A program made the translations under genes and the position numbers. From a virus: a DNA stretch of 64,000 bases. Every line of letters begins with the position of its first letter. The first letter of the stretch is position 1. The DNA lies in the IMG/VR virus record IMGVR_UViG_3300040801_002948, positions 1 through 64,000 of that record, one strand, 5' to 3'. The notes below the pieces were generated by a model that did no database searches, was not told the DNA's origin, and saw nothing but the letters and a program-made list of their open reading frames with translations. This document shows, one piece after another, positions 523 to 38,077 of the stretch.

Positions 523-610
523 TTTGCGTTTAAGCGCTGAAGGTTATACCTTTAGGCTTTGCATTGACTTTTACGGGTCTATTGTATGTATTGAAATGAA
601 AGTGAATAGA

Positions 611-643
611 AGCCCGCTGACAAAAATCAGCGGGCTTTTTTTA
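611..643 (+). terminator. intrinsic terminator
   Basis: Perfect 10-bp stem AGCCCGCTGA/TCAGCGGGCT, 6-nt loop, then TTTTTTT. Confidence 0.8.
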
Positions 644-702
644 TTTGGATAATTTACATATATTGGCGGCACTTTCATTTTTCAACCCGTAAACTTTAAA
701 CA

Positions 703-1851
703 ATGCAGTACAACATTTCTGCTGACCAAGAATTCTTGATTGACTTCAGCTTGTCCCTTTCTCAAGGCGCTGTTTTGAATTACTATGTCAAATGCCCGGT
801 GTGGGCAAGATGGACTGACATGAACGGCCGCCGGTTCTACCATATCAGCCGGAACAAAGTTATATCTGAATTTCCTGCCATTAGCATGAAGCCGGACACG
901 GTTTATCGTATTAATAAAGCACTAGAAAAGGCTTGCTTGATAGTTTACAGGACAGACAATAAAAAAGACTTTATAGCCCTTTCGCCGGTTCTTGAATACT
1001 GGATGAAAAAGAAGGATGAAATTTATCTTGCGCGGCTTGATAAAATGGGCCTTGAAGCAAAGCACCTTCAGTTTGAAAAAGAAGCCTTGAATTTGTTTGC
1101 TGACAACTCGGAAAAAAATCCGAGCAAAGCAGAAGAACGGCAAGAACTCGGAAAAAAATCCGAGACAGCTCGGAAAAAAATCCGAGATAACTCGGAAAAA
1201 AATCCGACAAATAAGAACAACAGTAATAAGAACACCAATAATAAGAACAAAGAACTGTCAAGCCTTTTTGCAAAAAAGGCAGTGAATGACCCTGAATTAC
1301 GGTTAATTGAAAGGCTGAACCCAAAGAACCTAAAGCACGCGGGGCTTATTTATGACGTGACAGCGCACTTTATAGAGAAGACCGGGAAGAAGCAAACAAA
1401 GCCTTACACACAAGGCATGTTTGATAAAGTGGTTTATTGGGCAAATAGGGGCTATAGGCTTGAAGACTTCAAAAAGGTCATTGACTTCAAAGTTTGGTAC
1501 TTTACAGAAAAATTCCCCAAGCCTGAAAATATCAACCTTGTTTCCTTTATCAGGAAGGAACATTTTGAAACAAACCTTAGCAGTGCCCAAGAATGGCAAG
1601 AAAACCCAGCACAGGGCAGCACAGAAGCTGTCAAGGGCGATATTTACTATTCAAGGTTTGTCAAGTTTATAGAAAACAACTATCCGCAGTTCAACGGCAT
1701 GGTGCCAAATGCTTCAAGGTTTTTTGAAGCAATAAGGAATAATCCGTCTAAAGCTCAACAATTGCGGCGGGTTGTTAACCTTTTGGCAAAAGAAAACCAC
1801 ACGCCAAACGGACAGGATTTTATCACTTTGATGAAAAAGTTTTCCAAATAA
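703..1851 (+). CDS. putative replication initiator / replisome organizer (DnaD-type C-terminus)
   Basis: 382 aa. wHTH-like N-terminus. Central K/N/E low-complexity linker that carries the DNA iterons. C-terminal KVVYWANRGYRLEDFKKVIDFKVWYF...NLVSFIRKEHFETNL resembles the conserved phage replisome-organizer C-terminus. The TAA stop lies inside the next promoter palindrome. Confidence 0.5.
   Translation: MQYNISADQEFLIDFSLSLSQGAVLNYYVKCPVWARWTDMNGRRFYHISRNKVISEFPAISMKPDTVYRINKALEKACLIVYRTDNKKDFIALSPVLEYWMKKKDEIYLARLDKMGLEAKHLQFEKEALNLFADNSEKNPSKAEERQELGKKSETARKKIRDNSEKNPTNKNNSNKNTNNKNKELSSLFAKKAVNDPELRLIERLNPKNLKHAGLIYDVTAHFIEKTGKKQTKPYTQGMFDKVVYWANRGYRLEDFKKVIDFKVWYFTEKFPKPENINLVSFIRKEHFETNLSSAQEWQENPAQGSTEAVKGDIYYSRFVKFIENNYPQFNGMVPNASRFFEAIRNNPSKAQQLRRVVNLLAKENHTPNGQDFITLMKKFSK
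1107..1208. repeat. four 18-bp palindromic iterons CTCGGAAAAAAATCCGAG (candidate ori)
   Basis: Copies at 1107-1124, 1147-1164, 1169-1186 and 1191-1208 (last base C in copy 4). They fall in three different reading frames of the host ORF. Confidence 0.75.
1210..1249. repeat. AATAAGAACA x3 at 15-bp spacing
   Basis: Units at 1210, 1225 and 1240, directly downstream of the iterons. A-rich. Confidence 0.7.
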
Positions 1852-1909
1852 TTTGGTTTGTATTTTTTTGGGCTTATCTTTACGCCATCGTTAACAAAAA
1901 CCACACAGC
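1844..1909 (+). promoter_or_regulatory. promoter-leader element, partly decayed copy
   Basis: CCAAATAATTTGG at 1844-1856. -7-like TATCTTTA. Leader CCATCGTTAACAAAAACCACACAGC. ATG at 1910. Confidence 0.55.
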
Positions 1910-2869
1910 ATGTTTGACAAGATTTTAGCTTTAAGGAATTTAGAAGTATCAAAAAGCCCGGCGGGCTACGCTGTTTATCACAAGCACCTTGAAACCGGCG
2001 CAAGCCTTTTTGATGATTTTGTGAATTTTGTCCTTCAGTATGACAGCTTTGAGCTTGACGAAATCCGCCGCGCTTACAGAGTTGTTTTCCTGCCAATATT
2101 AAATTCCCGTGGAATAGTGCTTCATGACGATGGCTTTAAGGTTCACGACATGAGAAGCTTTAAAAGAATGGGCACTTCCAAGGCAAACGCTGTCATTTTA
2201 GCGTTTGAAATGGGCCTGTGGGCTTTAAAAGACGTTAGTTGTCAAATTTCCAAGCCGCACTTGCACAAGTCATTGTATAAATTTCTTGATGTTTTGACAG
2301 TGGAGGTTGATGAATTATCCGGGCTATTTGTTTACCGTCCTACTTATGCCGGCCTTAAATGTTATGGCAATTTACATATGTTTGCCAATGATTTTATTGA
2401 AATAGTGGACTATTTTTACCCTGACCATTCATTCAGTGAGTATCAATTTGCTGTTCGCTACCATGAGCATTTTATAAAGCACGCTGTAAGGTGCGAAGTT
2501 GTTGAGCAACCAAGCGGCAACTTTTCTATTGGCGTTCCACTTTCGACCTATTCAAAGCATGAATTTTTAGTCTTTATAGCCTTGCTTGAATTGGAGCTAT
2601 TGGATATTTCCGGAGCAGACGTTTTAAGGCCTACCAATTCAACCGCTATTTACAGGGCTATAGACACCACGACCGGGCAAGAAGTTTTTATTGCAATTGG
2701 GTCTTACATAGAAGGCTATGTTCAATATGCAAAAATTAAGTCTGAAAAAGCTATGGCCCAAAGTTCAAGTTGGCTGTCAATCACACAAAGCCGCTTTGTG
2801 CGTTCAATGACAGGGCAGGATTTTTACAAGCTTTACGCCAATTTGCAATACATAAAGCCGCTTACCTAA
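1910..2869 (+). CDS. hypothetical protein (319 aa)
   Basis: ATG directly after the conserved leader. TAATG junction with the next ORF. Confidence 0.6.
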   Translation: MFDKILALRNLEVSKSPAGYAVYHKHLETGASLFDDFVNFVLQYDSFELDEIRRAYRVVFLPILNSRGIVLHDDGFKVHDMRSFKRMGTSKANAVILAFEMGLWALKDVSCQISKPHLHKSLYKFLDVLTVEVDELSGLFVYRPTYAGLKCYGNLHMFANDFIEIVDYFYPDHSFSEYQFAVRYHEHFIKHAVRCEVVEQPSGNFSIGVPLSTYSKHEFLVFIALLELELLDISGADVLRPTNSTAIYRAIDTTTGQEVFIAIGSYIEGYVQYAKIKSEKAMAQSSSWLSITQSRFVRSMTGQDFYKLYANLQYIKPLT

Positions 2870-3417
2870 TGCAAACTATTGAAGAAACCCTTTCTGAAGC
2901 GGAAAAGGTAAATTTATTGCGTGGCATGTTCGCAGGAATTGCGGACATTCGCCACGTATATGAAGGCACCGCTTCAAAAAAGGTGTGGGAACAGGGATAT
3001 AAATATTTGTCGTTTAAGATGGGCTATAAAATAGACACGCTTGACGGCATGAGCGGCGATGAAGCGCTAAAGGCTTATGACTTGCTTTTAAACCCTGAGC
3101 CAAAAGCATACCAAATTTTACATTACAGGTTTTTCAATACTTATGTTCAGCGCAATGAAGCATGGCTGAAAGTATATGGCGAAATGTTGCCGGAACAGCT
3201 TTTAACTGAACTATTTTTTGCTTTTGACCCTGAAGAACATTTTGCTTTAGCTTATCAGCGTGCCGGGCTTCAAGTCCAAGAACGCCAAATAATTCACAAA
3301 ACATTTGACCGGGCAAAAGCACTTCCTTATATTGCGGATGGCTGGTATTTTGGGTATGCGCCAAAAGACCGGTTGAACAAGCTACCAAACCACACAGCAT
3401 GTACATTGAATTTATAG
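2869..3417 (+). CDS. hypothetical protein (182 aa)
   Basis: Start moved from the ORF-track start (2770) to the internal ATG that forms a TAATG overlap with the upstream stop. Confidence 0.5.
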   Translation: MQTIEETLSEAEKVNLLRGMFAGIADIRHVYEGTASKKVWEQGYKYLSFKMGYKIDTLDGMSGDEALKAYDLLLNPEPKAYQILHYRFFNTYVQRNEAWLKVYGEMLPEQLLTELFFAFDPEEHFALAYQRAGLQVQERQIIHKTFDRAKALPYIADGWYFGYAPKDRLNKLPNHTACTLNL

Positions 3418-5582
3418 AAAACACTTTAAAGCACACAATGAAGGTTGTGGCGCTTTCTGATATCATTCAGGCCCGGCACCGGCCTTTCCAAGCTTATAGG
3501 ACAATTTTCCCTTTTGACAAGACGGTTTTCAGCCACCTTGAAAACACGAAAAGCGAAAAAGACCCTGAAGGGAACGTGAAAGGGTTTGCCGGGAAAGTCT
3601 TTTGTGATACCGTTTTTTTTGATATTGACGGAGGTGACAGCATTGAAGACATTGAAGTTGCCCGGCAGGAAACGCGTAAGCTTGCTAATTTTTTAGCAGT
3701 CCAATGCAATGTTCAGCCTGAACACATTGAAATATACTTCAGTGGCGGCAAGGGCTTTCACCTTGCTTTGCGCGCTGAACATTTTGGCGGTTTCCCGGCA
3801 AGCGCTGGCCTTCCGTCGCAAGTGCGGGCAATGCAAAAAGAATTAAAGCAAAAGCTTGGCCTGAACCACCTTGATACGGCTATTCAGGCCCCGGTGAAGT
3901 TCATCAGGCTACCAAACAGCAGGCACCAAAAAACAGGTTTGTACAAGATCAGGCTGAAGCCGCATGAACTTTCACTTGAAGTGGAAGAAATTATGGAAAT
4001 AGCGCAAGGTCCGGTAGACTACCTTGAAACCGGCGGAAGTATTATTTTGCCTTCTGAAGAACTTGTGGCCCTAAAGGAAAGGGCTTTAACCAAGCCCGAA
4101 AACAAAAACATCATTGAAGGGGAAGACGTGCCCAAAGGTGACAGCGCGCGGTTTGATATGGCTGTAAGGCTGACTTTAAGGAAGTACAGCCATGATGACT
4201 ATTTCCAGAACAACAGAAACAACTTTATGCACCAATTGGCCGCTTGGTGCAATGACCTTGGTGTTGGTGAAAAAGGCAATGGTGAAGTTGCTTTTGATAA
4301 AATTACTGACTATTGCGTTAACGTAATAGGTGATGACCCTGATACGTGGGACGTTGCAAACGTCCAAGGCACAATTTTAGGGCTATATGAACGTGACGCT
4401 GAAAAGTGGGCAGAAAAGAAAGCTTTTGTGGCTTTCCAAAATTCCCACATGGGCAGAAGCTTCAAGAACGAAATTGAACTTATTGAAACGTGCAAAGAGT
4501 TTGCGCGGAATAGTTCTTTCAGCTTGCGGCGCATACTGTTTTTTTTGCGGCAAGTGAACAATAATTTCGATCTTTCCCTTCCTGAAGCAAAGCTTGAAGA
4601 AATTGTTGCTAATTACAGTGAACGCACTTTTGAAAGGGATGAAAACAACCTTGGCTTCACAGCCGCTGAACTTGTCCCTGAAATAGCCGAAAATGTAAGC
4701 GCGGCAATTATGGGCAAAGCGCAAAGTTGCGGCATTGCGTTAGTTGACAAGCTGGAAGGCTATAATTTCCGGGGCAAGTATTGTCAGATATTGGGCAAGC
4801 AGGGCGTTGGTAAGTCGGCGCTTCTTCTTCAGGTTGCGCGTTCAATGTGCGAAGCCGGGCACCGGGCAGTAATTTCAACAATGGAAGACAGCCGCGTTGG
4901 TTTTGGTAAACGTATCTTGAAAGGCAGCTTTCAGGCTGAACCGATTCTTGATGACAATGACATTGTGATTGGATATGAAGACACGGTTCAGCGGCTTTCT
5001 AAATACTTTGCAGACCCTGAAAAGCGGCACCGGGCCATTGAAATGGTTCAGGAAGAACTTAACGGCCTTTATGGCGATAGGATGATAATTGACGATGAAA
5101 CCAGTATGGGGGCCGATCAATACAGGGTTTTTATTGAAGCTTTGATAAAAAAATATGGCCATGTTGAAGCGCTTGGCGTTGATGGCCATAGCATGATGGC
5201 TGACCACGGACTTGGGGAAGTCCATAATGATATTAGGAACGCGGCGGGCCTGAAGAAGCTTGCAAATGAATATAAAATTGGCGTTTTTGACCTTGTTCAT
5301 GTACCAACGCCAATTTCATCAATCCGGCGCGCCCTTCATGACGTGCCAAGGTCAGGAAGTAAAGTTGCTGAACCGGCTGACCTGTTTTTTAGCCTGTCAA
5401 GGTTTGAAGCTGAAGACAGCTTGCCTGATGACCCTAAATACATTCCCAATTATATACATTTCCAGTATTACGGGAAGCGGACAACGGGCAAAACGAAGAA
5501 CTTAGTGCTTGAGGTAGACTTCAACACTATGCACGTTCAAGTTTCAGACATACCGGTTGAAGAATTTACAAACCCGTTTTAA
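3399..5582 (+). CDS. bifunctional primase-polymerase (AEP) / P-loop replicative helicase
   Basis: N-terminal prim-pol motifs FFDIDGGD, SGGKGFHL and RLPNSRH. C-terminal Walker A GKQGVGKSALLL and Walker-B-like MIIDDE. ATG preceded by AAACCACACAGC. Confidence 0.8.
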   Translation: MYIEFIENTLKHTMKVVALSDIIQARHRPFQAYRTIFPFDKTVFSHLENTKSEKDPEGNVKGFAGKVFCDTVFFDIDGGDSIEDIEVARQETRKLANFLAVQCNVQPEHIEIYFSGGKGFHLALRAEHFGGFPASAGLPSQVRAMQKELKQKLGLNHLDTAIQAPVKFIRLPNSRHQKTGLYKIRLKPHELSLEVEEIMEIAQGPVDYLETGGSIILPSEELVALKERALTKPENKNIIEGEDVPKGDSARFDMAVRLTLRKYSHDDYFQNNRNNFMHQLAAWCNDLGVGEKGNGEVAFDKITDYCVNVIGDDPDTWDVANVQGTILGLYERDAEKWAEKKAFVAFQNSHMGRSFKNEIELIETCKEFARNSSFSLRRILFFLRQVNNNFDLSLPEAKLEEIVANYSERTFERDENNLGFTAAELVPEIAENVSAAIMGKAQSCGIALVDKLEGYNFRGKYCQILGKQGVGKSALLLQVARSMCEAGHRAVISTMEDSRVGFGKRILKGSFQAEPILDDNDIVIGYEDTVQRLSKYFADPEKRHRAIEMVQEELNGLYGDRMIIDDETSMGADQYRVFIEALIKKYGHVEALGVDGHSMMADHGLGEVHNDIRNAAGLKKLANEYKIGVFDLVHVPTPISSIRRALHDVPRSGSKVAEPADLFFSLSRFEAEDSLPDDPKYIPNYIHFQYYGKRTTGKTKNLVLEVDFNTMHVQVSDIPVEEFTNPF

Positions 5583-7355: not shown

Positions 7356-7751
7356 ATGGCTTTTTCTTGTGGGCTTCCTGAAATTCAGTCTTTGTTAAAT
7401 TGTACGGGGCGGAAAAATCAAGCGCTTAGTTGGGTTGAACGCCATTTCCCTGAAGTTTCTGGTTTTATTGGTGAGTTGCTTTCAATTGGCGGGAGCGGTA
7501 ACGCGGAGCTTTTTGGGTCATCAGATAGCCGTGTTTTAAATTTAGCCTTTTCGTTCCCTTTAAGGGAAGATGAAAAAACGCAACGGTTTTTAAAGACAGT
7601 ACGCAATTCTAAAAATATTCAAGAACTTATTGACGAACACGGTATTAGCTGTCAATTCCACGGCGTTCTTATCTACACTGAGGGCCAAGGCTTTGATTGG
7701 CAATACCAATCTTTAGTTGAAGAAATAATTGAAAAAATAATAAGATTTTAA
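7356..7751 (+). CDS. hypothetical protein (131 aa)
   Basis: The ORF-track start (7197) would read through a terminator. The first ATG after the terminator was chosen instead. Confidence 0.45.
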   Translation: MAFSCGLPEIQSLLNCTGRKNQALSWVERHFPEVSGFIGELLSIGGSGNAELFGSSDSRVLNLAFSFPLREDEKTQRFLKTVRNSKNIQELIDEHGISCQFHGVLIYTEGQGFDWQYQSLVEEIIEKIIRF

Positions 7752-7822
7752 CCAAATAATTTGGTGTTTACAAATAAGCGCTGTATATTTGACCTATCGT
7801 TAACAACAAAACACCACACAAC
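7752..7822 (+). promoter_or_regulatory. promoter-leader element, full copy
   Basis: CCAAATAATTTGG at 7752-7764, N20, TATATTTG, leader CTATCGTTAACAACAAAACACCACACAAC, ATG at 7823. Confidence 0.7.
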
Positions 7823-8191
7823 ATGATTCACGCAACAACATCCAAAGACCTGATGGGCAGTTTTTACAGCATTTGCGGCCGGAAGCTTACAGGCGTTGCA
7901 TCGGCTACGGTACACACTTCCGAATTTGCAAAAGCTAAAGCAGACGGCCACCGCGTTTGCTCCATATGCGCTGCTAAGCTGAAAGCTAAGCAGGAAGCTA
8001 AAAAGCGCGCGCCCAAGCCTAAAGGGCCTACAGCCAAGCAGTTGAACCGCTGGCTGAAAGAAGCTAAGCAAGATGTAAAGGACTTCAACCCTGTTTGGGC
8101 TGATGGCACACCAAAAGCGCCACACATTATTGAAAACCTGAAAGAGCGGGTTTCTGAATTGGAAAAATCGCTTCAGGAACTTGAAGCGTAA
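7823..8191 (+). CDS. hypothetical protein, Cys-pair (zinc-ribbon-like) N-terminus and basic coiled-coil C-terminus
   Basis: SICGRK...HRVCSICAAK, then a K-rich helix. Flanked by its own promoter and terminator. Confidence 0.6.
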   Translation: MIHATTSKDLMGSFYSICGRKLTGVASATVHTSEFAKAKADGHRVCSICAAKLKAKQEAKKRAPKPKGPTAKQLNRWLKEAKQDVKDFNPVWADGTPKAPHIIENLKERVSELEKSLQELEA

Positions 8192-8197
8192 GAAGGT

Positions 8198-8234
8198 GCC
8201 GGGCAAGTTTAAATGAACTGCTTGCCCGGCTTTT
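8198..8234 (+). terminator. intrinsic terminator
   Basis: GCCGGGCAAG / CTTGCCCGGC 10-bp stem followed by TTTT. Confidence 0.75.
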
Positions 8235-8256
8235 CAAAAAAACTTTAAAACAATAC

Positions 8257-8325
8257 CCAAATAATTTGGACGGCAATATAAAGCGCCGTATATTTGAACC
8301 ATCGTTAACAGCAAAACCACACAAC
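8257..8325 (+). promoter_or_regulatory. promoter-leader element, full copy
   Basis: CCAAATAATTTGG at 8257-8269, TATATTTG, AACCATCGTTAACAGCAAAACCACACAAC, ATG at 8326. Confidence 0.7.
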
Positions 8326-8646
8326 ATGAATTACAAAGGAACAAAGCTTACAAAACTTGCAATCACAATTGGCAATATCTTGCGCGGCAAAAAGTACGGC
8401 AAGATTGAAGCAAGCCTTGCTTTGCGCCTTGGTTACGAATATGCAGAACAGATTATTGCTGAAGGCCTTGAATACAAAGTTGTGAGGTTTTACAGCAAGT
8501 CAGAAAAGCGGAATGTTTCAAAGGTGGTTTTGATGCTGCCAACTAATAACCGGGATTTTCAAAACTATGAAGACTTGATTTTGAGAATACGCGGGGCAAA
8601 TTCATTCCGCCGGTACAAAACGTGCCTGTTAAAAAAAGTGTCATAA
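8326..8646 (+). CDS. hypothetical protein (106 aa)
   Basis: The start was set at the ATG following the leader. The ORF-track N-terminal extension from 8266 is a translation of the promoter element. Confidence 0.6.
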   Translation: MNYKGTKLTKLAITIGNILRGKKYGKIEASLALRLGYEYAEQIIAEGLEYKVVRFYSKSEKRNVSKVVLMLPTNNRDFQNYEDLILRIRGANSFRRYKTCLLKKVS

Positions 8647-9236
8647 TGAAAGCATTAAAGCTTGCAGGTTTTTTTGTTTGGATGGCAGTAGCTATTTTTG
8701 TTACCCAAAATTTTTTGAATGTTCTGGATTTTCTTGAAGAAGAAAACACGAGCAGCAAGATATCAAGAAACCACATTTCCTTTCGGGAAAAAGCTTTTCC
8801 TGATTCAGTCAAATTGCCGTATGGCATTGTTGGCGGAAAAAATAATACAATAAAACCACACAGAATGTACGAAATCAACAGAGACAAAGAAGGCAATGAA
8901 ATGCTGATTGCAGAAATGGATGACAGCTACCTTGTCACCAAGGAGAATTGGCTGTTAAAAAGGCTTGATGACGTTAATAACATGATGGACGGAAAGCACG
9001 AAATTCCAGCTTCGCAGCGGGGCCTTTTATCTGCGCGGATTATGGAAATGGACACTGAAGAACTTCAAGAACTTCAAAAGCGTTTGTTAAAGCAAATGTA
9101 CCCGTATATTGCAGAACTTTATTTGCGGGGCTTGTATGACTGCCAAGAACGGCTTCAAGTTGTATTGGGCCGCGCCGGGCAGTTGCGTATAAAGTTGCCC
9201 ACTGAAGTCTTGCCGCCGGCCCCTAATGACTATTAA
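8646..9236 (+). CDS. membrane-anchored hypothetical protein (196 aa)
   Basis: TAATG overlap with the upstream ORF. N-terminal TM LAGFFVWMAVAIFV. Contains an in-frame internal ATG (8865) preceded by AAAACCACACAGA. Confidence 0.55.
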   Translation: MKALKLAGFFVWMAVAIFVTQNFLNVLDFLEEENTSSKISRNHISFREKAFPDSVKLPYGIVGGKNNTIKPHRMYEINRDKEGNEMLIAEMDDSYLVTKENWLLKRLDDVNNMMDGKHEIPASQRGLLSARIMEMDTEELQELQKRLLKQMYPYIAELYLRGLYDCQERLQVVLGRAGQLRIKLPTEVLPPAPNDY

Positions 9237-9239
9237 AGA

Positions 9240-9256
9240 TTTTGTTTGTTAACGAT
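9240..9256 (+). other. anti-leader site A (reverse complement of the conserved leader core)
   Basis: TTTTGTTTGTTAACGAT compared with the reverse complement of ATCGTTAACAACAAAA: one extra T. Lies between the TAA at 9234-9236 and the terminator at 9262-9303. Confidence 0.6.
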
Positions 9257-9261
9257 TTTCC

Positions 9262-9303
9262 GCGCGCGCCTTGCAGGTTCTCAGCCTATGGCGCGCGCTT
9301 TTT
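9262..9303 (+). terminator. intrinsic terminator
   Basis: GCGCGCGCC / GGCGCGCGC stem followed by TTTTT. Confidence 0.75.
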
Positions 9304-9314
9304 AATTTGCAGCC

Positions 9315-9719
9315 ATGAAAAGCCTGTTTCAGAAAATTGCTGAATTCTTTTTCCCATTAAAAACCGTTTCCCGTCCGTTCTATGGGCACGCGGGCACTGA
9401 CAGCGGCTTTGTATGCTGGCTACCTGAAGAAGCGGGCACAGCGTCAAAGTATGCGCGTTTCGTGGGCCGTTTTTCGCCTGTCACCGATTGTTTAGACAAA
9501 GCAGCGGTTTTTTCAGTTATTGACGTTGAAGAAGATGAAGGCGCGTATAAAGTTTTTGACGCTGAAGACCTTGAACGCTTGATGAAAGACATTTTCAGCC
9601 TTGAAAGGGAATTTCCCAAAAATGTTTACGTGCCAAAAGATGTTGTTTACGGCGACCAGCAAAGCAGCATCTTTGTAGACAGGACAACAAAGGTTGCAAA
9701 CCCGTTCTATTTGGATTAA
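9315..9719 (+). CDS. hypothetical protein (134 aa)
   Basis: Clean ORF with an ATG start. Confidence 0.55.
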   Translation: MKSLFQKIAEFFFPLKTVSRPFYGHAGTDSGFVCWLPEEAGTASKYARFVGRFSPVTDCLDKAAVFSVIDVEEDEGAYKVFDAEDLERLMKDIFSLEREFPKNVYVPKDVVYGDQQSSIFVDRTTKVANPFYLD

Positions 9720-9763
9720 ATAAACATTTTGCATATATTGTTGACGCTTCAAAACAACAATAT

Positions 9764-11506
9764 ATGGCCACACAGACCGAAAGTACACAAGCTACTGATA
9801 ATGAGCGGGTTGTAGATAATGCGAACTTGTTCGGGCGTTTTTACGCTCGAATGATAAAGCGGGACATTAAAATAAAAGTGTCCGCGCACGCAGTTAGTAT
9901 AATGTTGACTTCTTTTGTCACTTATACTGTTTTTGTAAACACGTTCAATGCCATTGGATTGACCGGGCGCTTTATTGCTGCTGTTTCTGTTTTCCTTTCC
10001 ATTATTGTAAGCTTGTCAATTGAATCAGGTTTTACCGATCAATGGCACCTGTTTTTTCGCCAAAAGCTTTATGAAGGCAATGGCGAAAGCTGGATAAGGA
10101 TGAAGAAGGTAAACCTTTTCAAGCTGATTCTTTTTAGCGTGCTTAACCCTTTGACGCTGACTATAGGCGGCATTAATGTCGGGAACAATGTTCTTCCAAC
10201 GTACAAAGGCTATGACGTTTCAAAGCTTCATAGTGTCTTCCAATCTCAAAAAAGCGAAGTTGACAGCAAAGCAGAAAAAAGGGTGAGTTATTACAGTGAC
10301 TTGCAGAAAGGTCAGGAAGAACTTATAAAAGCGAAGTATGAAAAGCTAATTGCCAGTGCAGAAGCTGAACAGGTTAGATGGGACAGCTTAGAAAAAATTA
10401 GGAACAAGACTTATCTTTCCTTGAAAACAAAAGCCATACAGCAGGCGCAAAAGTACGCGGCTGATATGGCCGGCGAACTTGCCGCTGTTTCAAGCAAGTA
10501 TGAAGAAAAAAGGCAAAGTGAGCTAAACGCGGCCATAGCGGAAAAAGAAAGGATTGAATCGGTTTATCAGGAAAGGAAAAACCAGCTTGAAGAAACGCAC
10601 GGCACCGGGCGCACGATTCATAATACTACCCGGTGGACGTTAAAGATTTTTTCAGTCCTAGTTGGTTTTTTCGCTTGGGTGGTGGTCATTTTTGCCAGTT
10701 ATCAAGAAGAACTTTATGCTTTTGAAACGCGGCAAGATATGGGCGCGGAAGAAGCGGATTTGACCGATTCAGCTTTTCGCAGGCTTCAGGCAAGCCTTGG
10801 CAGTAATGTTCAAACACGGCTTCATAATTTGGCGGCAATGGCTGAATCAGTAGCGCCGGAAAAAAGGGATAGAGAATATTACCGGCAAAACGGTTTTAAA
10901 GTCTTCCAGCGCGTTGGAAGCGTTGAAGCCCGTGAAGCTGAGCGCCAAGCAAAGCAAATGGCTGAGCGTTTGAAGGAAGAAGAAAAAATTGCAGAACTTA
11001 CAAGGCAAATTCAGGATTTGAAGGCAAAGCTTTCAACTGTGGTTGAACAAAAACCAGCGGTTCCAACAGTTGTCCCAAAAGCCGAAGCACCGGCAAGGCC
11101 ACCTGAAAAAGAAAGCGCTTCTGTTTCAGAGCGGCCGGATTTTTCAAGGCCACTTTTGAATATTGGCAAAGTTCAATATCAGGAAGGGCGCACAAAAATA
11201 AAAGGGCTGGAAATAGAAATGCGGAGCGGGCAGGCTTTTTTTGTCCATAAGTTTAAAAAGAAGGGTAAAGCGCTGGAAGCCTTGAAAGACCAAGACTATT
11301 GCCGCACGGCTCAAGGCACGTATAAAACAAGGGTAAAGGAAAGCACCGAAAAGCTTGTCCAACTTGAACTTCAGGGCGGTTCAGAAAAGTCTATTGCCCG
11401 GGCCCGGCGCGCCCTTGAAAATCGCAATGAAAAGTACCGATATTGGTCTTTGGCTTATATTGTGCTTCAGTCACTCAATAAACAGTTTAACAACCAATTC
11501 AAATGA
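9764..11506 (+). CDS. large multi-TM / coiled-coil membrane protein (580 aa)
   Basis: Several hydrophobic segments (residues about 45-90, 115-140 and 290-315), separated by long E/K/Q-rich helical regions. Confidence 0.65.
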   Translation: MATQTESTQATDNERVVDNANLFGRFYARMIKRDIKIKVSAHAVSIMLTSFVTYTVFVNTFNAIGLTGRFIAAVSVFLSIIVSLSIESGFTDQWHLFFRQKLYEGNGESWIRMKKVNLFKLILFSVLNPLTLTIGGINVGNNVLPTYKGYDVSKLHSVFQSQKSEVDSKAEKRVSYYSDLQKGQEELIKAKYEKLIASAEAEQVRWDSLEKIRNKTYLSLKTKAIQQAQKYAADMAGELAAVSSKYEEKRQSELNAAIAEKERIESVYQERKNQLEETHGTGRTIHNTTRWTLKIFSVLVGFFAWVVVIFASYQEELYAFETRQDMGAEEADLTDSAFRRLQASLGSNVQTRLHNLAAMAESVAPEKRDREYYRQNGFKVFQRVGSVEAREAERQAKQMAERLKEEEKIAELTRQIQDLKAKLSTVVEQKPAVPTVVPKAEAPARPPEKESASVSERPDFSRPLLNIGKVQYQEGRTKIKGLEIEMRSGQAFFVHKFKKKGKALEALKDQDYCRTAQGTYKTRVKESTEKLVQLELQGGSEKSIARARRALENRNEKYRYWSLAYIVLQSLNKQFNNQFK

Positions 11507-11826
11507 GAAAGCAAAGAATAAAAGCGGCTATTGATTACGCTGCAAAGCTGTTTGTGCTTCTGCTGAACCAAGCCGGGCTTTGGGTTGCGGTTTCAAGTAC
11601 GTCAGGTTTTTTCCATTGGCTTATGTGGTTTGTTTTTGTATTCATGACAGTTGGCGTTGTCTTGTCACAAGTTGCTGAAGGCTTGGCTTTTTACCACGTC
11701 AAAAGGTATGAACGCGAAAATGAAATAAGCTTTGCCCGGAATTACGCGGCGGCTTTGTATGCTTCAAGGCGATTCAATTACAGCGTTGCAAAAAAAGCAA
11801 TTGACCGGCTTTTGAATGTCAAATAA
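11503..11826 (+). CDS. membrane protein (107 aa, 2 TM)
   Basis: ATGA overlap with the upstream ORF. TM segments: LFVLLLNQAGLWVAV and LMWFVFVFMTVGVVL. The stop TAA lies inside the palindrome-like TCAAATAATTTGG. Confidence 0.6.
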   Translation: MRKQRIKAAIDYAAKLFVLLLNQAGLWVAVSSTSGFFHWLMWFVFVFMTVGVVLSQVAEGLAFYHVKRYERENEISFARNYAAALYASRRFNYSVAKKAIDRLLNVK

Positions 11827-11879
11827 TTTGGATTTTGTTTTTTATTCCTGTATGTTTGCAACTATAAACCACACATGAC
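11819..11879 (+). promoter_or_regulatory. promoter copy with diverged leader
   Basis: TCAAATAATTTGG, N20, TATGTTTG (a TAnnTTTG match), leader CAACTATAAACCACACATGAC, ATG at 11880. Confidence 0.55.
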
Positions 11880-12869
11880 ATGAGTACAAGCAAAACAACT
11901 ACCACAAAGAAGGCGGCACCGGCAAAGAAACCGGTGGCTAAAGCAAAAAGCGTTGAAGACATTTACAGCGCGGCGGAATTAGAAGCTTTAAGCCGTATTT
12001 ACGGCAAGCTTGACGGCCTTGATTTTATTGTGAGCAAGGCCGAACAAGTGAAGGCAAATCTTCAGCTTTGGCTTCAGGGCTGTAAGACTAACCCGGAATG
12101 GGTGAAGAAGATTAAAGACGGCCGCCGGTTGTCTTCTGTTGACGCGCAATTGACGCGCCTGAAGGCTACTGCGATGTTTGGCCCTTACGGCGCTAAATGG
12201 GGCGTCAGAAAAAAGAAGTTCGACCTTCAGGACTTGGGGCCTGTTGACATCGGCGGTGGCCGTTCAGTGCCTGCCCTTTTGCTGATGCTTACAGCAGAAT
12301 TTTACTATCCAAGCCCTATTGACGGCACAGAAATCAGCTTTGAGACAGAAGGAAGCATTTGGGTTTTTCAGGTTGAGCGGGGCGTTTACAAGCCGGTCAC
12401 AGACCTTATGAAGCGGGTTTCAACGGCCGTTGTCAGCAAATCGCTTTCTTTTATTGGGGTTAATTCTGATGTATTTGAAGGCCGGTTTGATGACCAAGAA
12501 TATCAGCACCAAATTGGTGAACATTTCCAGCCGTTTTTGGCTGAAGTGCCTGACGCGAAGCCGCCAAAAGCACAGCCAAAAACAAGCGCGCCTTCACCGG
12601 TCATTGAATTCAACAAAGACCAAGTGAAGCAACTATTCAAGTGGTTCAACGCTGAATGGGATTCAAATGGCGTGAAGTCTTTCCTTGAATCGAAAGGCTA
12701 TGACATTGACGAAAACAGCCTTAACAAAATCAAGTGGGCTAAGTTCTTCTTCAATCAAATGGCCCAAGATGGAAAGGTTGAACCGGATGACTTTGATAAA
12801 AAAGTGAATCAAAGCTTTGCAACGCTTATCCGTGAAAGCTGGAAAGATTACGCTAATGCACAAAAGTAA
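11880..12869 (+). CDS. hypothetical protein; possible Rad52/Sak-like single-strand annealing protein with a basic AKP-rich N-terminal tail
   Basis: KKAAPAKKPVAKAK tail. AMFGPYGAKWG and SLSFIGVNSDVFEG loosely resemble Rad52-family motifs. The functional call is weak. Confidence 0.35.
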   Translation: MSTSKTTTTKKAAPAKKPVAKAKSVEDIYSAAELEALSRIYGKLDGLDFIVSKAEQVKANLQLWLQGCKTNPEWVKKIKDGRRLSSVDAQLTRLKATAMFGPYGAKWGVRKKKFDLQDLGPVDIGGGRSVPALLLMLTAEFYYPSPIDGTEISFETEGSIWVFQVERGVYKPVTDLMKRVSTAVVSKSLSFIGVNSDVFEGRFDDQEYQHQIGEHFQPFLAEVPDAKPPKAQPKTSAPSPVIEFNKDQVKQLFKWFNAEWDSNGVKSFLESKGYDIDENSLNKIKWAKFFFNQMAQDGKVEPDDFDKKVNQSFATLIRESWKDYANAQK

Positions 12870-21776: not shown

Positions 21777-21787
21777 TTGCCATTTCT

Positions 21788-21843
21788 TTTGGTTGTTTGA
21801 TTCTTATGGCTTACCTTTAACGGTGCATTAAAACCACACAAGC
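21788..21843 (+). promoter_or_regulatory. candidate weak promoter (TTTG-N20-TACCTTTA) with AAAACCACACAAGC leader
   Basis: The spacing and boxes resemble the decayed copy at 27599. ATG at 21844. Confidence 0.35.
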
Positions 21844-22008
21844 ATGAATAATTTAGCAAGCATTTTGGACGACTATGCAAGCGGCGTTTCCACGCGCGAA
21901 GAAGCGATAAACGACCTGTTGAAGGCGCGCCGGTTCACAAACCGCTTATTCTTTTTGGCAGGCATTGCGGCGGGCTTTATCCTGTTCACTTTAATTCATT
22001 CAGCATGA
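21844..22008 (+). CDS. small C-terminally anchored membrane protein (54 aa)
   Basis: Below the ORF-track cutoff. Translation: MNNLASILDDYASGVSTREEAINDLLKARRFTNRLFFLAGIAAGFILFTLIHSA. Confidence 0.4.
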   Translation: MNNLASILDDYASGVSTREEAINDLLKARRFTNRLFFLAGIAAGFILFTLIHSA

Positions 22009-24586: not shown

Positions 24587-24828
24587 AGTTTACCACGCAT
24601 GACATAAACGAGATTAAGACAGGGCGCGTTGTTATTTGCAACGCTTATTGGCTTTGCAAAGATGGCGACACGAAGCAGGCCATCTTTTATGGGTCAACAG
24701 CGCAATGTAATAAAAACCGGTCTATCCCTGACCGGCTAAAAGCGCATACAGAGAAAAAAACCGGCTGGAAGGTTGAAGTGGTTTATGTAGAAATAGCGTT
24801 TAGGCCGCCGCAACCGCAGTGGGTTTAA
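24583..24828 (+). CDS. hypothetical protein, paralog B of a tandem pair
   Basis: ATGA overlap. The paralogy is visible by eye. Confidence 0.6.
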   Translation: MKFTTHDINEIKTGRVVICNAYWLCKDGDTKQAIFYGSTAQCNKNRSIPDRLKAHTEKKTGWKVEVVYVEIAFRPPQPQWV

Positions 24829-24855
24829 AGAAGTGTTGTTCATAGCAAGTTAGGC

Positions 24856-24891
24856 GGCGCAATGCTACTTTTGTGGTGTTGCGCCCTTTTT
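24856..24891 (+). terminator. intrinsic terminator
   Basis: GGCGCAA/TTGCGCC stem followed by CTTTTTC. Confidence 0.55.
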
Positions 24892-24932
24892 CGTATATTG
24901 TTTGTTAGTGCTTGGTGCAAAATCTTAATTCG

Positions 24933-29918: not shown

Positions 29919-29950
29919 GCCCGGCGCTTGATAGGTGCCGGGCTTTATTT
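29919..29950 (+). terminator. intrinsic terminator; hairpin core identical to 33817-33843
   Basis: GCCCGGCGC-TTGATAG-GTGCCGGGC followed by TTTATTTT. Confidence 0.65.
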
Positions 29951-29962
29951 TAAATATTCAAG

Positions 29963-32314: not shown

Positions 32315-32335
32315 ACGGTTTGTTTTAGGTTGTTA

Positions 32336-32369: not shown

Positions 32370-32382
32370 GTATATTGGTGGC

Positions 32383-36404: not shown

Positions 36405-36472
36405 CCAAATAATTTGGTTTATAAAGTTGCTTGCCTTATCTTTGAAACATCGTTAACACAAACCACGCAAAC
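36405..36472 (+). promoter_or_regulatory. promoter-leader element, full copy
   Basis: CCAAATAATTTGG, TATCTTTG, AAACATCGTTAACACAAACCACGCAAAC, ATG at 36473. Confidence 0.7.
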
Positions 36473-36892
36473 ATGAAAGACAGACAGTTTATTCAAAGCT
36501 TGATAGACCAATTGCATTTTAACCAGTCAATAAGCTTTGGTACAGAAGAAGACCTTCTGACCGTAACGCACATGCGCGTTAGCGCCTATGAAAGCGCTTT
36601 CTTTTTCACCTTAAATGGGCAAGCGCATGACAAGTATAAAACCGCGTTAGGCGCGGGCCTTGGGTGCAATGGCTTTCTTGAAAAAGGTTTCCGGCTTGAA
36701 CTTGAGCCGGAAGAAGCTGTCATGGCCCTTAGAATGGCTTTAGAAAGGCATGATTCAGAACTTGTTTTGGAGCTTCTGAACCCTGACCGGCGCGAAAGCT
36801 TGCCGGATTGGGAAGAAGCGCCTGACTACATTTTTGATGACTGGCAGGGCTATGAAAGCAAGGCATTGAAATTTCTTGAACGGTTCCAGTAA
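36473..36892 (+). CDS. hypothetical protein (139 aa)
   Basis: Cassette ORF. Confidence 0.6.
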   Translation: MKDRQFIQSLIDQLHFNQSISFGTEEDLLTVTHMRVSAYESAFFFTLNGQAHDKYKTALGAGLGCNGFLEKGFRLELEPEEAVMALRMALERHDSELVLELLNPDRRESLPDWEEAPDYIFDDWQGYESKALKFLERFQ

Positions 36893-36903
36893 AAATTGCA
36901 ATA

Positions 36904-37344
36904 ATGATTGATTATAAAACAATAAAGGGTGACATAAAACTTTGGCTTTGCACCGGGAAAGGCGGCGCAAAGAAGCGCATAAACGCAAAGCGGCTGAAGA
37001 CACCAAAAGCGGCCGCTTTGTATGCAGAAAAGACAGGGCTTGAACGGCCTATAGTAGTGACCGGCCTTTTAACGCACGCGGAAACAAAGCCTGTCTTCCG
37101 GCTTGAACGGCCGGGCTTTGAACAGTTCTTGCTTGACCAAACAATAAAGGTAGCCGCCAAGCACCTTGAAGCATACCGGGCGCGAATGGAAGGCGATGAA
37201 AAAGCAAAGGCACAAATGGAAGACCTGTTTTTATGCTTTTGCGCGCTGAATAAGGAAGCCGCAAAAGTTTCAACTGAGCTTGCCGGGGCTGTTTACCGGG
37301 CTTGGTCTGACGGCGCTTTTTTGCCGGTGAAGATTATAGTTTAA
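36904..37344 (+). CDS. hypothetical protein (146 aa)
   Basis: Second gene of the last cassette operon. Confidence 0.55.
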   Translation: MIDYKTIKGDIKLWLCTGKGGAKKRINAKRLKTPKAAALYAEKTGLERPIVVTGLLTHAETKPVFRLERPGFEQFLLDQTIKVAAKHLEAYRARMEGDEKAKAQMEDLFLCFCALNKEAAKVSTELAGAVYRAWSDGAFLPVKIIV

Positions 37345-37349
37345 AGATA

Positions 37350-37366
37350 TTTTTGTTGTAACGATG
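37350..37366 (+). other. anti-leader site B (reverse complement of the conserved leader core)
   Basis: TTTTTGTTGTAACGATG compared with the reverse complement of CATCGTTAACAACAAAA: one base missing. Lies between the TAA at 37342-37344 and the terminator at 37374-37409. Confidence 0.6.
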
Positions 37367-37373: not shown

Positions 37374-37409
37374 GCCGCGTGCCTTTTGCTTGGTGCGCGG
37401 CTTTTTTTT
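37374..37409 (+). terminator. intrinsic terminator
   Basis: GCCGCG...CGCGGC stem followed by TTTTTTTT. Confidence 0.7.
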
Positions 37410-37429
37410 ATCTTGCACAAAAGTCTATT

Positions 37430-38077
37430 ATGAAAAACCCAAAATTTAAGGCGCTTGTGGAAGCGTCTATGGATTGCATTGAAGACGCGCAAGCCAAGGG
37501 CGAAGGAAAGATTATTGTGAACTTTCTTTCGCTTATGTCAGAGCGTGTGTACGGTGAGCCGGGCAACCTTGCGAAAGCGCTTAATCTTCAGCCTTCAATT
37601 TTGTCAGCGCCAAAAGTGCCGCGTGTGAAGTCCGGGGCAAGTCAATTGTCAAAGCTTGGGCAAGATCAGCGCAAAAATTGTGCAACTTGCCCTGATGCAA
37701 AGGAAATTGAAAAGGCCTTGCCCGGCATCAGCACAAGCCGGAAGCAGAAGACCGGGGCAGATAGAGCCGCACAGGGCGACTTTCAAAAGGAAGCTGAACA
37801 GATAGCCGGTGAACCCGACAAAGACCCGCCACAGGACGCGCCTGACCTTACAGCGGCAAAAAAAGAAGAAGGCTTGCCTTCGCACCCTTCAGAGTGCCGC
37901 ACCCTTGAGCAATTGAAAAAATGGTATGGCTTTGGTACTGCCCGGCCTGAATCAGATATTGCAGAAGCAATAAAAGCTGACCTTGATTTGTTACAGGTTG
38001 ACTACAGCGGCCGCCTTTCAAAGGCTGACAGCTTGGTAAAGGAATTCTTCAGTAAAGTGATTCAGGGCAATGATTAA
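37430..38077 (+). CDS. hypothetical protein (215 aa)
   Basis: First ATG after the terminator. The ORF-track start at 37364 lies inside the hairpin. Confidence 0.5.
   Translation: MKNPKFKALVEASMDCIEDAQAKGEGKIIVNFLSLMSERVYGEPGNLAKALNLQPSILSAPKVPRVKSGASQLSKLGQDQRKNCATCPDAKEIEKALPGISTSRKQKTGADRAAQGDFQKEAEQIAGEPDKDPPQDAPDLTAAKKEEGLPSHPSECRTLEQLKKWYGFGTARPESDIAEAIKADLDLLQVDYSGRLSKADSLVKEFFSKVIQGND

What the first reader, a model, noticed from the sequence alone, without database searches (positions are those of the whole stretch)
9240..9303. Anti-leader site A: reverse complement of the conserved 5' leader placed between a stop codon and an intrinsic terminator
TTTTGTTTGTTAACGAT (9240-9256) is the reverse complement of the leader core ATCGTTAAC-AACAAAA with one extra base. 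It begins 4 nt after the TAA of 8646-9236. Five nt later comes the hairpin GCGCGCGCC/GGCGCGCGC plus TTTTT.

No -7 box, palindrome or minus-strand ORF accompanies it, so it is not simply an inverted gene unit. As RNA, the 3' end of the transcript from promoter 8257 would carry about 16 nt complementary to its own 5' leader and to the leaders of about 20 other early mRNAs. A seed followed directly by a terminator hairpin is the layout of 3'UTR-derived regulatory RNAs.

Possible roles are 5'-3' pairing in cis or shut-off of leader-bearing mRNAs in trans. The alternative explanation is a scar from an inversion between element copies.
Basis: partly seen in the sequence, partly recalled or inferred. 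Interest (0 to 1): 0.65.

Follow-up and report, generated by a model that had tools for sequence, protein, structure and literature searches.

The report
Anti-leader elements in phage 3' UTRs
A Bacteroidota phage carries, just before the terminators of two small operons, a short sequence that is the exact antisense of the 5' end shared by about 20 of its mRNAs. This looks like an RNA switch that closes or silences those messages, but no RNA data exist to prove it.

Summary
TTTTGTTTGTTAACGAT (9240-9256) is the reverse complement of the leader core ATCGTTAACAACAAAA with one extra T. It lies 3 nt after the TAA and 5 nt before a GC hairpin plus T5.

I found a second copy with the same layout at 37351-37365: TAA, a 6-nt spacer, TTTTGTTGTAACGAT, 8 nt, hairpin, T8. 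Matches this good are expected about 0.01 times per window. The two sites are the two best leader-pairing windows of 62,868 tested.

Duplex energies with all 20 leaders average -14.8 and -14.2 kcal/mol. Shuffled controls give about -6, and 0 of 200 reach the observed values. Complementarity covers exactly +1 to +16 of the predicted mRNA. There is no further homology to the promoter cassette, so this is not an inverted gene unit or a simple inversion scar. Full-length transcripts of both operons fold into 5'-3' panhandles, with pair probability above 0.9 at most positions in A and about 0.3-1.0 in B.

The most likely function is RNA-level sequestration of the leader, in cis first and possibly in trans as a roughly 65-nt 3' fragment.

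Evidence is missing in three places. No RNA reads were found. The only relative that covers both positions has a different leader and no anti-leader. Sites A and B may be paralogous copies of one module.

The parts
8257..8300 (+). Promoter of operon A. It has CCAAATAATTTGG (8257-8269, holding the -33 TTTG), the -7 box TATATTTG (8289-8296) and the 4-nt spacer aacc.
   Evidence: This promoter type (the 13-mer, a 19-nt spacer between it and the -7 box, then TATMTTTG) is a generic strong Bacteroidota promoter, found in 58 IMG/VR loci.
8301..8316 (+). Leader core of operon A, ATCGTTAACAGCAAAA. This is the predicted +1 to +16 of the mRNA.
   Evidence: [quoted passage not shown]
8326..9236 (+). Two-gene operon A: 8326-8646 (106 aa) and 8646-9236 (196 aa, hydrophobic N-terminus, no homologue in the database).
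   Evidence: The first gene has a 46% identical homologue in the relative L118.
9240..9256 (+). Anti-leader A, TTTTGTTTGTTAACGAT. It is complementary to leader +1 to +16 with one bulged U.
9262..9303 (+). Intrinsic-terminator-like hairpin A (9-bp GC stem extended by inner pairs) plus T5.
   Evidence: The 67-nt fragment folds at -26.8 kcal/mol, z = -3.4.
9302..9317 (+). -7-like box TTAATTTG, 5 nt, then the ATG of gene 9315-9719. This may be a weak promoter giving a leaderless mRNA.
   Evidence: Read directly from the sequence. Analogous junctions occur at 32363-32385 and in L117 at 12238-12262. This is an inference.
36405..36463 (+). Promoter and leader of operon B: CCAAATAATTTGG (36405-36417), -7 box TATCTTTG (36437-36444), and the leader ATCGTTAACACAAAC from 36449. 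This is the most divergent of the 20 leaders.
36473..37344 (+). Two-gene operon B: 36473-36892 (139 aa) and 36904-37344 (146 aa). No family match. Not homologous to the proteins of operon A.
37351..37365 (+). Anti-leader B, TTTTGTTGTAACGAT. It is complementary to leader +1 to +16 with one leader A bulged.
37374..37409 (+). Intrinsic-terminator-like hairpin B (GCCGCGTGCC / GGTGCGCGGC) plus T8.
   Evidence: The 65-nt fragment folds at -22.1 kcal/mol, z = -3.8.
37409..37432 (+). -7-like box TATCTTGC. A TTTG in the hairpin loop lies 20 nt upstream of it. The ATG at 37430 starts the next gene block.
   Evidence: Read directly from the sequence. The homologous junction in the relative L117 (14139-14230) has a terminator, T9 and TATATTGC before the homologous gene.

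Best explanation
Sites A (9240-9256) and B (37351-37365) are 3'-UTR 'anti-leaders'. Each is a 15-17-nt RNA segment between the last stop codon of a two-gene operon and its intrinsic terminator. Each is antisense to nucleotides +1 to +16 of the 5' leader that starts that operon and 19 other phage transcripts.

Proposed mechanism: once RNA polymerase has transcribed the 3' UTR, the anti-leader pairs with the mRNA's own 5' end and closes the roughly 1-kb message into a panhandle. This buries the normally unstructured, A-rich 5' leader. Bacteroidota ribosomes have no Shine-Dalgarno pairing and depend on such a leader. It also creates a 16-bp duplex at the 5' terminus.

The expected result is expression limited mainly to the co-transcriptional period, and/or altered mRNA decay. 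Decay could change through a double-strand-specific cut or, conversely, through protection of the 5' end. Because all leaders share the sequence, any 3' fragment that survives (anti-leader + hairpin + U tail, about 65 nt) could also pair in trans.

What is shown: the complementarity, its exact extent, its position, its statistical significance and the predicted folding. What is inferred: the TSS, that the terminators work, that pairing happens in vivo, and the direction of the effect.
For: - Two sites share one layout: stop, 3-6 nt, anti-leader, 5-8 nt, GC hairpin, T-run.
- Chance expectation is about 0.01 per window.
- A and B are the top two of 62,868 windows for pairing with the leader core.
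- Mean duplex energy with the 20 leaders is -14.8 (A) and -14.2 (B) kcal/mol. Shuffles give -6.2 +/- 1.4 and -6.4 +/- 1.7, and 0 of 200 reach the observed values. Ten other terminator-proximal 3' UTRs give -3.3 to -10.3.
- Complementarity starts at the predicted +1. [quoted passage not shown] It stops at +16 in both sites.
- No homology to the rest of the promoter cassette.
- In partition-function folds of 8301-9303 and 36449-37409, the leader pairs with the anti-leader. Probability is above 0.9 at 14 of 16 positions in A, and 0.3-1.0 at positions 1-14 in B.
- Leader nucleotides 1-16 are otherwise predicted mostly unpaired (mean 0.72 over the 20 transcripts). Adding the 3' UTR drops this from 0.49 to 0.04 in A and from 0.80 to 0.27 in B.
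- Each anti-leader tolerates a single-base indel at a position that is invariant in the 20 leaders. That fits a bulge in an RNA duplex better than a shared protein site on DNA.
Against: - There is no RNA evidence. The metatranscriptomes of the source sample hold no phage contigs.
- The own leader of operon B is the worst partner of anti-B (-9.9 against -15.0 kcal/mol for consensus leaders). A purely cis function would not predict this.
- A and B share TTAAAGAT upstream, similar hairpin 5' arms, and a T-run followed by TAnnTTGCA downstream. They may therefore be copies of one module rather than independent inventions.
- IMGVR_UViG_3300012855_000001 (58% identical large terminase, TerL) is the only relative that covers both positions. 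It has a terminator at the B-equivalent but no significant complementarity to its own, different, leader: -9.8 kcal/mol, reached by 6.6% of shuffles.
- The start codon (+26 to +30) is not itself in the duplex.
Confidence: 0.4

Rival explanations
1. The element acts mainly in trans as a 3'-UTR-derived small RNA. Processing or termination would release fragments of about 65 nt (anti-leader seed, terminator hairpin, U tail). These accumulate and pair with the 5' ends of all 20 leader-bearing mRNAs, giving a global, delayed shut-off or stabilisation of that promoter class.
For: - The seed-then-terminator layout is present, and both fragments fold with a strong hairpin and a largely open seed.
- Both sites pair equally well with nearly all leaders.
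- Anti-B matches the consensus leader better than its own operon's leader (-15.0 against -9.9 kcal/mol). That fits a trans target set.
- The conserved AAAGAU(A)UUUU just 5' of the seed resembles an A/U-rich single-strand endonuclease site. This last point is inference from general knowledge, not tested.
- UTR-derived sRNAs exist in Bacteroides (PMC7366714).
Against: - No small RNA has been observed and there is no Rfam match.
- Only 2 of about 20 equally promoted units would supply the antisense, so stoichiometric shut-off needs much greater stability of the fragment.
- On the full-length mRNA the seed is predicted to be occupied in cis.
- Not seen in the one relative that covers both positions.
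Confidence: 0.2
2. The element is a non-functional by-product. A terminator module that happened to capture or evolve a short inverted copy of the leader was duplicated to two places. The resemblance persists because the copies are young, or because recombination with the many leader copies keeps them alike.
For: - A and B share flanks: TTAAAGAT, similar hairpin arms, and a T-run followed by TAnnTTGCA.
- A third module with the same TTAAAGA stop context and terminator (24826-24900) has only 8 of 16 matches. It looks like a decayed copy, or one that never had the element.
- The promoter cassettes evolve in concert, since each related phage has its own genome-wide leader. Recombination among repeats is therefore active.
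- The relative lacks the element.
Against: - Homology to the cassette is confined to exactly +1 to +16 in both copies, with no trace of the -7 box or the palindrome. An inversion or inverted insertion of a cassette would leave these.
- Between A and B the spacer, loop and stem have diverged strongly, while the 16-mer has no substitutions, only one indel each.
- 16 nt is short for homology-driven conversion.
- No inversion joints in the DNA contigs.
Confidence: 0.25
3. The element is a DNA-level site. A phage or host protein that recognises the double-stranded leader box ATCGTTAAC(A)ACAAAA at +1 to +16 of the cassettes would also bind the two inverted copies. These lie about 57-75 bp upstream of the putative starts of the next genes. 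The protein could activate those genes or block transcription there, in the manner of phi29 p4-type dual regulators.
For: - ATCGTTAACA is nearly invariant in the leaders (19 of 20 exact) and contains the palindrome GTTAAC.
- The same box sits directly after -7 boxes in unrelated phage contigs. This suggests a factor common to many phages or hosts.
- Both anti-sites lie at a similar distance upstream of a -7-like box that follows the terminator.
Against: - Both anti-sites carry a 1-bp indel inside the box. B destroys GTTAAC (GTAAC). This would shift the register of a protein site, whereas those positions never vary in the leaders.
- No DNA-binding protein was identified among the neighbouring genes.
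- The complementarity ends exactly at the predicted RNA 5' end.
Confidence: 0.1
4. The element is part of an invertible DNA switch. The leader and anti-leader would be inverted repeats flanking a roughly 0.95-kb segment (8301-9256 and 36449-37365) that a recombinase flips to turn the two genes off.
For: Imperfect 16-bp inverted repeats bracket both two-gene segments.
Against: - No contig in three DNA runs shows the inverted junction. Contigs run straight through both sites, though depth is only 3-5x.
- No minus-strand ORF would be switched on.
- No recombinase was identified among the roughly 35 proteins scanned. The remaining proteins of the window were not scanned.
- The repeats are short and carry indels.
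Confidence: 0.03

Closest known systems
5'-3' UTR pairing within one bacterial mRNA: icaR of Staphylococcus aureus (PMC3868564), and the fbi-tac fold-back of hok mRNA of plasmid R1 (from my own knowledge)
   Same: A short element in the 3' UTR is complementary to the 5' untranslated end of the same message. Pairing closes the molecule and is expected to lower translation and/or expose it to a double-strand RNase.
   Different: - In icaR the target is the Shine-Dalgarno region. Here it is the extreme 5' end (+1 to +16) of an SD-less Bacteroidota-type leader.
- Here the target is shared by about 20 mRNAs, so the element cannot be specific to one gene.
- The element sits 5-8 nt from the terminator in a very short 3' UTR.
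- It occurs twice in a phage genome.
- There is no experimental evidence here.
3'-UTR-derived small RNAs that share the parental mRNA's terminator, such as CpxQ, SroC and DapZ in enterobacteria (from my own knowledge), and the UTR-derived candidates in Bacteroides thetaiotaomicron (PMC7366714)
   Same: A seed lies directly upstream of the mRNA's own intrinsic terminator, in the 3' UTR, and is complementary to the 5' regions of other mRNAs.
   Different: - The predicted targets are the phage's own transcripts, including the parental mRNA itself.
- The seed is a full 16-nt antisense of a repeated leader, not a 7-12-nt seed.
- No RNA species has been observed.
- No Hfq-type chaperone is known in this phylum (from my own knowledge).
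PeSL promoter-terminator cassettes of T4-like phages (PMC2839356, PMC4122927)
   Same: The background on which the anti-leader sits is of this kind. A conserved composite of terminator stem-loop plus promoter (plus leader here) is repeated about 15 times around small variable ORFs at 27.5-36.5 kb, and differs as a set between related phages.
   Different: PeSLs have no described antisense copy of their transcribed part. The anti-leader is not a PeSL and shares only 16 nt with the cassette.
Protein-mediated shut-off of phage early mRNAs through a common leader feature: T4 RegA and RegB (from my own knowledge). Also lambda sib retroregulation of int by a 3' element.
   Same: In both cases a single phage-borne determinant acts on many early mRNAs through a shared 5' feature, or a site 3' of a gene controls its expression after transcription.
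   Different: Here the recogniser would be RNA, not protein. sib acts through an RNase III hairpin formed only in read-through transcripts, not by pairing with the 5' end.

Membership tests
Intrinsic (Rho-independent) terminator | GC-rich hairpin directly followed by a U/T run | tested here: met
   A: 9262-9298 plus T5. B: 37374-37401 plus T8. The standard scan missed both because its settings allow loops of only 3-8 nt. Termination itself has not been shown.
cis 5'-3' UTR pairing (icaR / hok fbi-tac type) | The 3' UTR segment is complementary to the 5' UTR of the same transcript | tested here: met
   16 nt with one bulge in both operons. Predicted pair probability is above 0.9 at most positions in A and 0.3-1.0 in B.
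cis 5'-3' UTR pairing (icaR / hok fbi-tac type) | Pairing masks the ribosome-binding region | tested here: inconclusive
   The duplex covers +1 to +16 of a 25-30-nt leader. That includes the A-rich stretch at about -18 to -12, but not the start codon. Bacteroidota lack SD pairing and initiation is tuned by structure and upstream A residues (PMC6847099).
cis 5'-3' UTR pairing (icaR / hok fbi-tac type) | Mutation of the 3' element changes protein or mRNA level, and compensatory changes restore it | not testable with these tools
   Needs reporters. The host is unknown because the phage is known only from a metagenome.
3'-UTR-derived sRNA | Lies in a 3' UTR and shares the mRNA's terminator | tested here: met
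3'-UTR-derived sRNA | A discrete, stable short RNA accumulates | not testable with these tools
   Three metatranscriptomes of the same sample hold no phage contigs.
3'-UTR-derived sRNA | Seed is complementary to target mRNAs beyond chance | tested here: met
   Mean energies are -14.8 and -14.2 kcal/mol against about -6 for shuffles, with 0 of 200 reaching the observed values. A and B are the top two windows genome-wide.
Inverted promoter cassette / inversion scar | Homology to the cassette extends beyond the leader, to the -7 box and the palindrome | tested here: not met
   nhmmer with the 120-nt cassette profile aligns site A over 11 positions only (E = 4.6) and does not report site B.
Invertible DNA segment | Both orientations are present in the population | tested here: not met
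   No joints were found, and contigs cross both sites colinearly in three runs. Depth is low and only contigs were available.
Rfam RNA families | Match at gathering score | tested here: not met
   No match in the whole window.

The most novel reading that the evidence does not exclude
The two modules encode phage anti-leader RNAs. These would be stable fragments of about 65 nt from the 3' ends of two operons, pairing with the first 16 nt of every leader-bearing phage mRNA. They would provide an RNA-only, self-timed shut-off or re-programming of a whole promoter class at the borders with the differently promoted gene blocks (9315 onward and 37430 onward). This would be an RNA counterpart of T4 RegA/RegB.
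Probability: 0.2. Interest if true: 0.8.

Novelty: new variant of a known kind. Interest (0 to 1): 0.6.

Why it matters
Post-transcriptional control in Bacteroidota and their phages is poorly known. These organisms lack Shine-Dalgarno-based initiation and Hfq.

A 3'-UTR element that is the exact antisense of a leader shared by about 20 phage mRNAs would be a very compact regulatory device. It could close a message on itself, or silence a whole class of messages, using 16 nt.

It is directly testable with small reporters and compensatory mutations. If it works, it would also be a portable part for gene control in Bacteroidota.

If it proves to be a neutral by-product, it still documents how repeated promoter-leader cassettes seed antisense sequences in phage genomes.

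Tried and rejected
**Looking for relatives**
- DNA search of 7700-10700 against 50,697 GenBank phages gave no match.
- The 196-aa protein has no homologue except itself, and no IMG/VR relative.
- Exact-protein look-up gave three JGI contigs that are 100% identical over the site, so they carry no information.
- The 580-aa protein found nothing in metagenome contigs. TerL found nothing in IMG/VR.
- The S8 protease gene gave only distant cellular hits.

**Relatives found through TerL**
- I obtained L114 (60% identity), L115 with L117, L118 and L121 (all the same IMG/VR contig, 58%), L119 (49%) and L120 (48%).
- Only the IMG/VR contig covers the positions equivalent to A and B. It has no anti-leader.
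- L114 and L119 stop short of those positions, so their negative result says nothing.

**RNA evidence**
- The runs from the same sample hold no phage RNA contigs.
- No other sample holds the phage.

**Other checks**
- Rfam and tRNA scans found nothing.
- A literature search for the motif returned only papers in unrelated fields, with no sign of a link to this element; none was opened.
- Scans with the full 27-30-nt leader were too noisy to use. The A/C-rich 3' half pairs with many G/U-rich coding windows.

**Rejected readings**
- Chance.
- Inverted cassette remnant.
- Transposon with terminal inverted repeats. The A and B proteins are unrelated and too small.
- Host-wide leader motif. There are only 3 hits in 596 Gb of genomes.

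Full report
**What the window is**

The window is most of a tailed phage genome of about 67 kb. It encodes a large terminase (TerL), a tape-measure protein, a head protease, a primase-helicase and an Amidase_3 endolysin. The source is a microbial-mat metagenome.

Its promoters are of the Bacteroidota type, with TTTG at -33 and TAnnTTTG at -7. The nearest terminases include prophages of Pontibacter and Hymenobacter. There is no DNA relative among GenBank phages.

**The leader**

Twenty promoter units share the same arrangement:
- CCAAATAATTTGG;
- about 20 nt;
- TAt(a/c)TTTG;
- 4 nt;
- ATCGTTAACA(A/G)CAAAAccacaca..ATG.

In Flavobacterium johnsoniae the transcription start site (TSS) lies 4-5 nt after the -7 element (PMC6847099). 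The mRNAs are therefore predicted to start at the A of ATCG and to carry leaders of 25-30 nt. This is close to the typical leader length of 23 nt in Bacteroides thetaiotaomicron (PMC7366714). In partition-function folds, leader nucleotides 1-16 are mostly unpaired, with a mean unpaired probability of 0.72.

**The observation**

- TAA at 9234-9236, then AGA;
- TTTTGTTTGTTAACGAT at 9240-9256;
- TTTCC;
- hairpin at 9262-9298;
- T5 at 9299-9303.

The 17-mer is the reverse complement of the 16-nt leader core with one extra T.

**A second site**

An edit-distance search found a second antisense copy at 37351-37365, TTTTGTTGTAACGAT, with one base missing. It has the same architecture:
- TAA at 37342-37344;
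- a 6-nt spacer (AGATAT);
- the anti-leader;
- 8 nt;
- hairpin GCCGCGTGCC/GGTGCGCGGC;
- T8, ending at 37409.

Like site A, it closes a two-gene operon that starts with a leader promoter. Operon A runs from 8257 to 9303 and operon B from 36405 to 37409. The proteins of the two operons are unrelated and match no family.

**More than chance**

- Matches within one edit of the 16-mer are expected about 0.01 times per window in dinucleotide shuffles, and 0.002-0.003 times per strand analytically.
- I scanned 62,868 30-nt windows on both strands, excluding the antisense of the leaders themselves. A and B are the two best partners of the leader core, at -14.9 and -14.5 kcal/mol. The background is -3.4 +/- 1.8 and the next best window, in coding sequence, is -12.8.
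- Both fall in the few tens of nucleotides between a stop codon and a terminator.
- Against all 20 leaders the mean duplex energy is -14.8 (A) and -14.2 (B). Shuffled anti-leaders give -6.2 +/- 1.4 and -6.4 +/- 1.7, and none of 200 reaches the observed value. Ten other terminator-proximal 3' UTRs give -3.3 to -10.3.

**What it is not**

- It is not an inverted cassette. A profile of the whole 120-nt cassette finds all 20 promoters plus three degenerate ones. On the minus strand at site A it aligns only 11 positions (E = 4.6), and it does not report site B. No -7 box or palindrome remnant exists.
- Complementarity runs from the predicted +1 to +16 in both sites and stops there on both sides. 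An inversion between cassettes would leave whole chimeric cassettes, not a 16-mer.
- DNA contigs from three runs cross both sites colinearly without inversion joints. Depth was only 3-5x.
- The leader is not a host-wide motif. There are 3 hits in 596 Gb of genomes.

**Predicted behaviour as RNA**

I folded the full transcripts 8301-9303 and 36449-37409.
- The 5' leader pairs with the anti-leader. Probability is above 0.9 at 14 of 16 positions in A, and 0.3-1.0 at positions 1-14 in B.
- The terminator hairpins form independently.
- Adding the 3' UTR lowers the mean unpaired probability of leader nucleotides 1-16 from 0.49 to 0.04 in A and from 0.80 to 0.27 in B.
- The isolated 65-67-nt 3' fragments fold into a strong hairpin with a largely open anti-leader.

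**Cis or trans**

Cis pairing is the physically most direct consequence, so it is my first choice. Two observations lean towards a trans component:
- Both elements pair equally well with nearly all leaders.
- Anti-B fits the consensus leader (-15.0) much better than the divergent leader of its own operon (-9.9, the worst of the 20).

The direction of any effect is not predictable from sequence. It could be translational block, RNase III-type cleavage, or protection of the 5' end.

**Evidence that weakens a functional reading**

1. There is no RNA data.
2. A and B share flanks: TTAAAGAT including the stop codon, similar 5' hairpin arms, and a T-run followed by TAnnTTGCA. They may be paralogous copies of one module.
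3. A third module with the same TTAAAGA stop context and a terminator (24826-24900) has only 8 of 16 matches.
4. Related phages each have their own genome-wide leader: AGACAACAACAC.. in L114, TGTCAGAGAGATAC.. in the IMG/VR contig, and ATCAAAGAAACAAA.. in L119.
5. In the only relative that covers both equivalent positions, the B-equivalent keeps the terminator, the T-run, the TATATTGC box and the homologous downstream gene. Its spacer pairs with its own leader only weakly: -9.8 kcal/mol, reached by 6.6% of shuffles.
6. The A-equivalent in that relative has different genes and no terminator.

The element is therefore lineage-specific as far as can be seen.

Against a neutral origin:
- the spacer, loop and stems of A and B have diverged strongly, while the 16-mer shows no substitutions, only one indel each;
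- those indels fall at positions that never vary in the 20 leaders. This is what a bulge-tolerant RNA duplex allows and a shared DNA-binding site does not.

**Verdict**

The RNA-antisense interpretation is the best supported, but it rests on computation only.

| Reading | Confidence |
|---|---|
| cis 5'-3' closure | 0.40 |
| mainly trans-acting 3'-UTR sRNA | 0.20 |
| non-functional duplicated module | 0.25 |
| DNA-level protein site | 0.10 |
| invertible segment | 0.03 |
| chance | below 0.01 |

The closest known systems are icaR-type and hok-type 5'-3' UTR pairing and 3'-UTR-derived sRNAs. The repeated promoter-terminator cassettes resemble the PeSLs of T4-like phages. I rate it a new variant of a known kind, with interest 0.6.

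Noticed in passing
window 37342-37432: A second anti-leader module, 'site B'. It was not part of the finding as given. Its layout is TAA, then AGATAT, then TTTTGTTGTAACGAT, then 8 nt, then a hairpin, then T8, then TATCTTGC, then ATG at 37430.
   Followed up: yes
L103 (Ga0102963_1012999) 560-3500; L104; IMG/VR loci L003, L015, L020, L026, L028, L031, L033, L034, L038, L039, L041, L108-L110, L112, L113: The box ATCGTTAACA lies 3-5 nt after a TAnnTTTG -7 box in many otherwise unrelated phage contigs. L103 has five such promoters in 3.5 kb. Downstream leader sequences differ between contigs. In 596 Gb of bacterial genomes, the longer form of the junction (a TTTG, 3-4 nt, then the box extended into the leader, ATCGTTAACARCAAAAC) has only 3 hits; the 10-nt box alone was not searched there. 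A phage-borne element of unknown role at the transcription start appears to spread horizontally.
   Followed up: partly
window 9299-9317; 32363-32385; 24886-24900; 37402-37432; L117 12238-12262 and 14192-14230: Terminator T-runs are followed at once by a -7-like box (TTAATTTG, TATATTGG, TATATTGT, TATCTTGC; TATATTTG in the relative). In three cases exactly 4-5 nt later comes the ATG. This suggests compact terminator-promoter junctions that give leaderless or very short-leader mRNAs. The genes concerned are the endolysin (32383), the terminase operon (24933) and the block starting at 37430.
   Followed up: partly
window 24826-24900: A third module has the same TTAAAGA stop context, a terminator and a T-run followed by TATATTGT. 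Its spacer (AGTGTTGTTCATAGCAAG) keeps only TGTTGTT of the anti-leader. It pairs with the leader core at -7.4 kcal/mol, ranking in the top 4% of windows.
   Followed up: partly
window 32315-32335; L104 1598-1650 (minus strand): The 3' UTR before the endolysin terminator (ACGGTTTGTTTTAGGTTGTTA) is complementary to the leader variant AACAAACCG found at 27643, 27952 and 31114. It pairs at -11.5 kcal/mol, in the top 0.6% of windows. In L104, which shares the leader and the amidase gene, an intergenic hairpin before the amidase carries TGTAAACGAT in its loop. That sequence is complementary to 9 of the first 10 leader nucleotides. Both observations are marginal statistically.
   Followed up: partly
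window 8850-8867: Inside ORF 8646-9236, an in-frame ATG at 8865 (Met74) is preceded by AAAACCACACAGA. This is the same sequence as the 3' half of the conserved leader. It may be an internal start giving a shorter product that lacks the hydrophobic N-terminus.
   Followed up: no
L114, L115/L117/L118/L121, L119 compared with the window: Related phages (49-60% TerL identity) each have their own conserved promoter-leader cassette, repeated many times after the terminase gene. The leader sequences are genome-specific. This indicates concerted evolution of the cassettes, in the manner of the PeSLs of T4-like phages.
   Followed up: partly
window 11807-11886, 21785-21852, 29940-30024: Three degenerate promoter cassettes lack the ATCGTTAAC box but keep the AACCACACA part of the leader (nhmmer E = 2e-7, 0.011 and 6e-4).
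   Followed up: no
window 39052-40740 and 51583-52665: The phage encodes an S8 subtilisin-like peptidase. Its best hits are cellular proteins at 26-41% identity. This is in addition to a canonical head-maturation protease.
   Followed up: no
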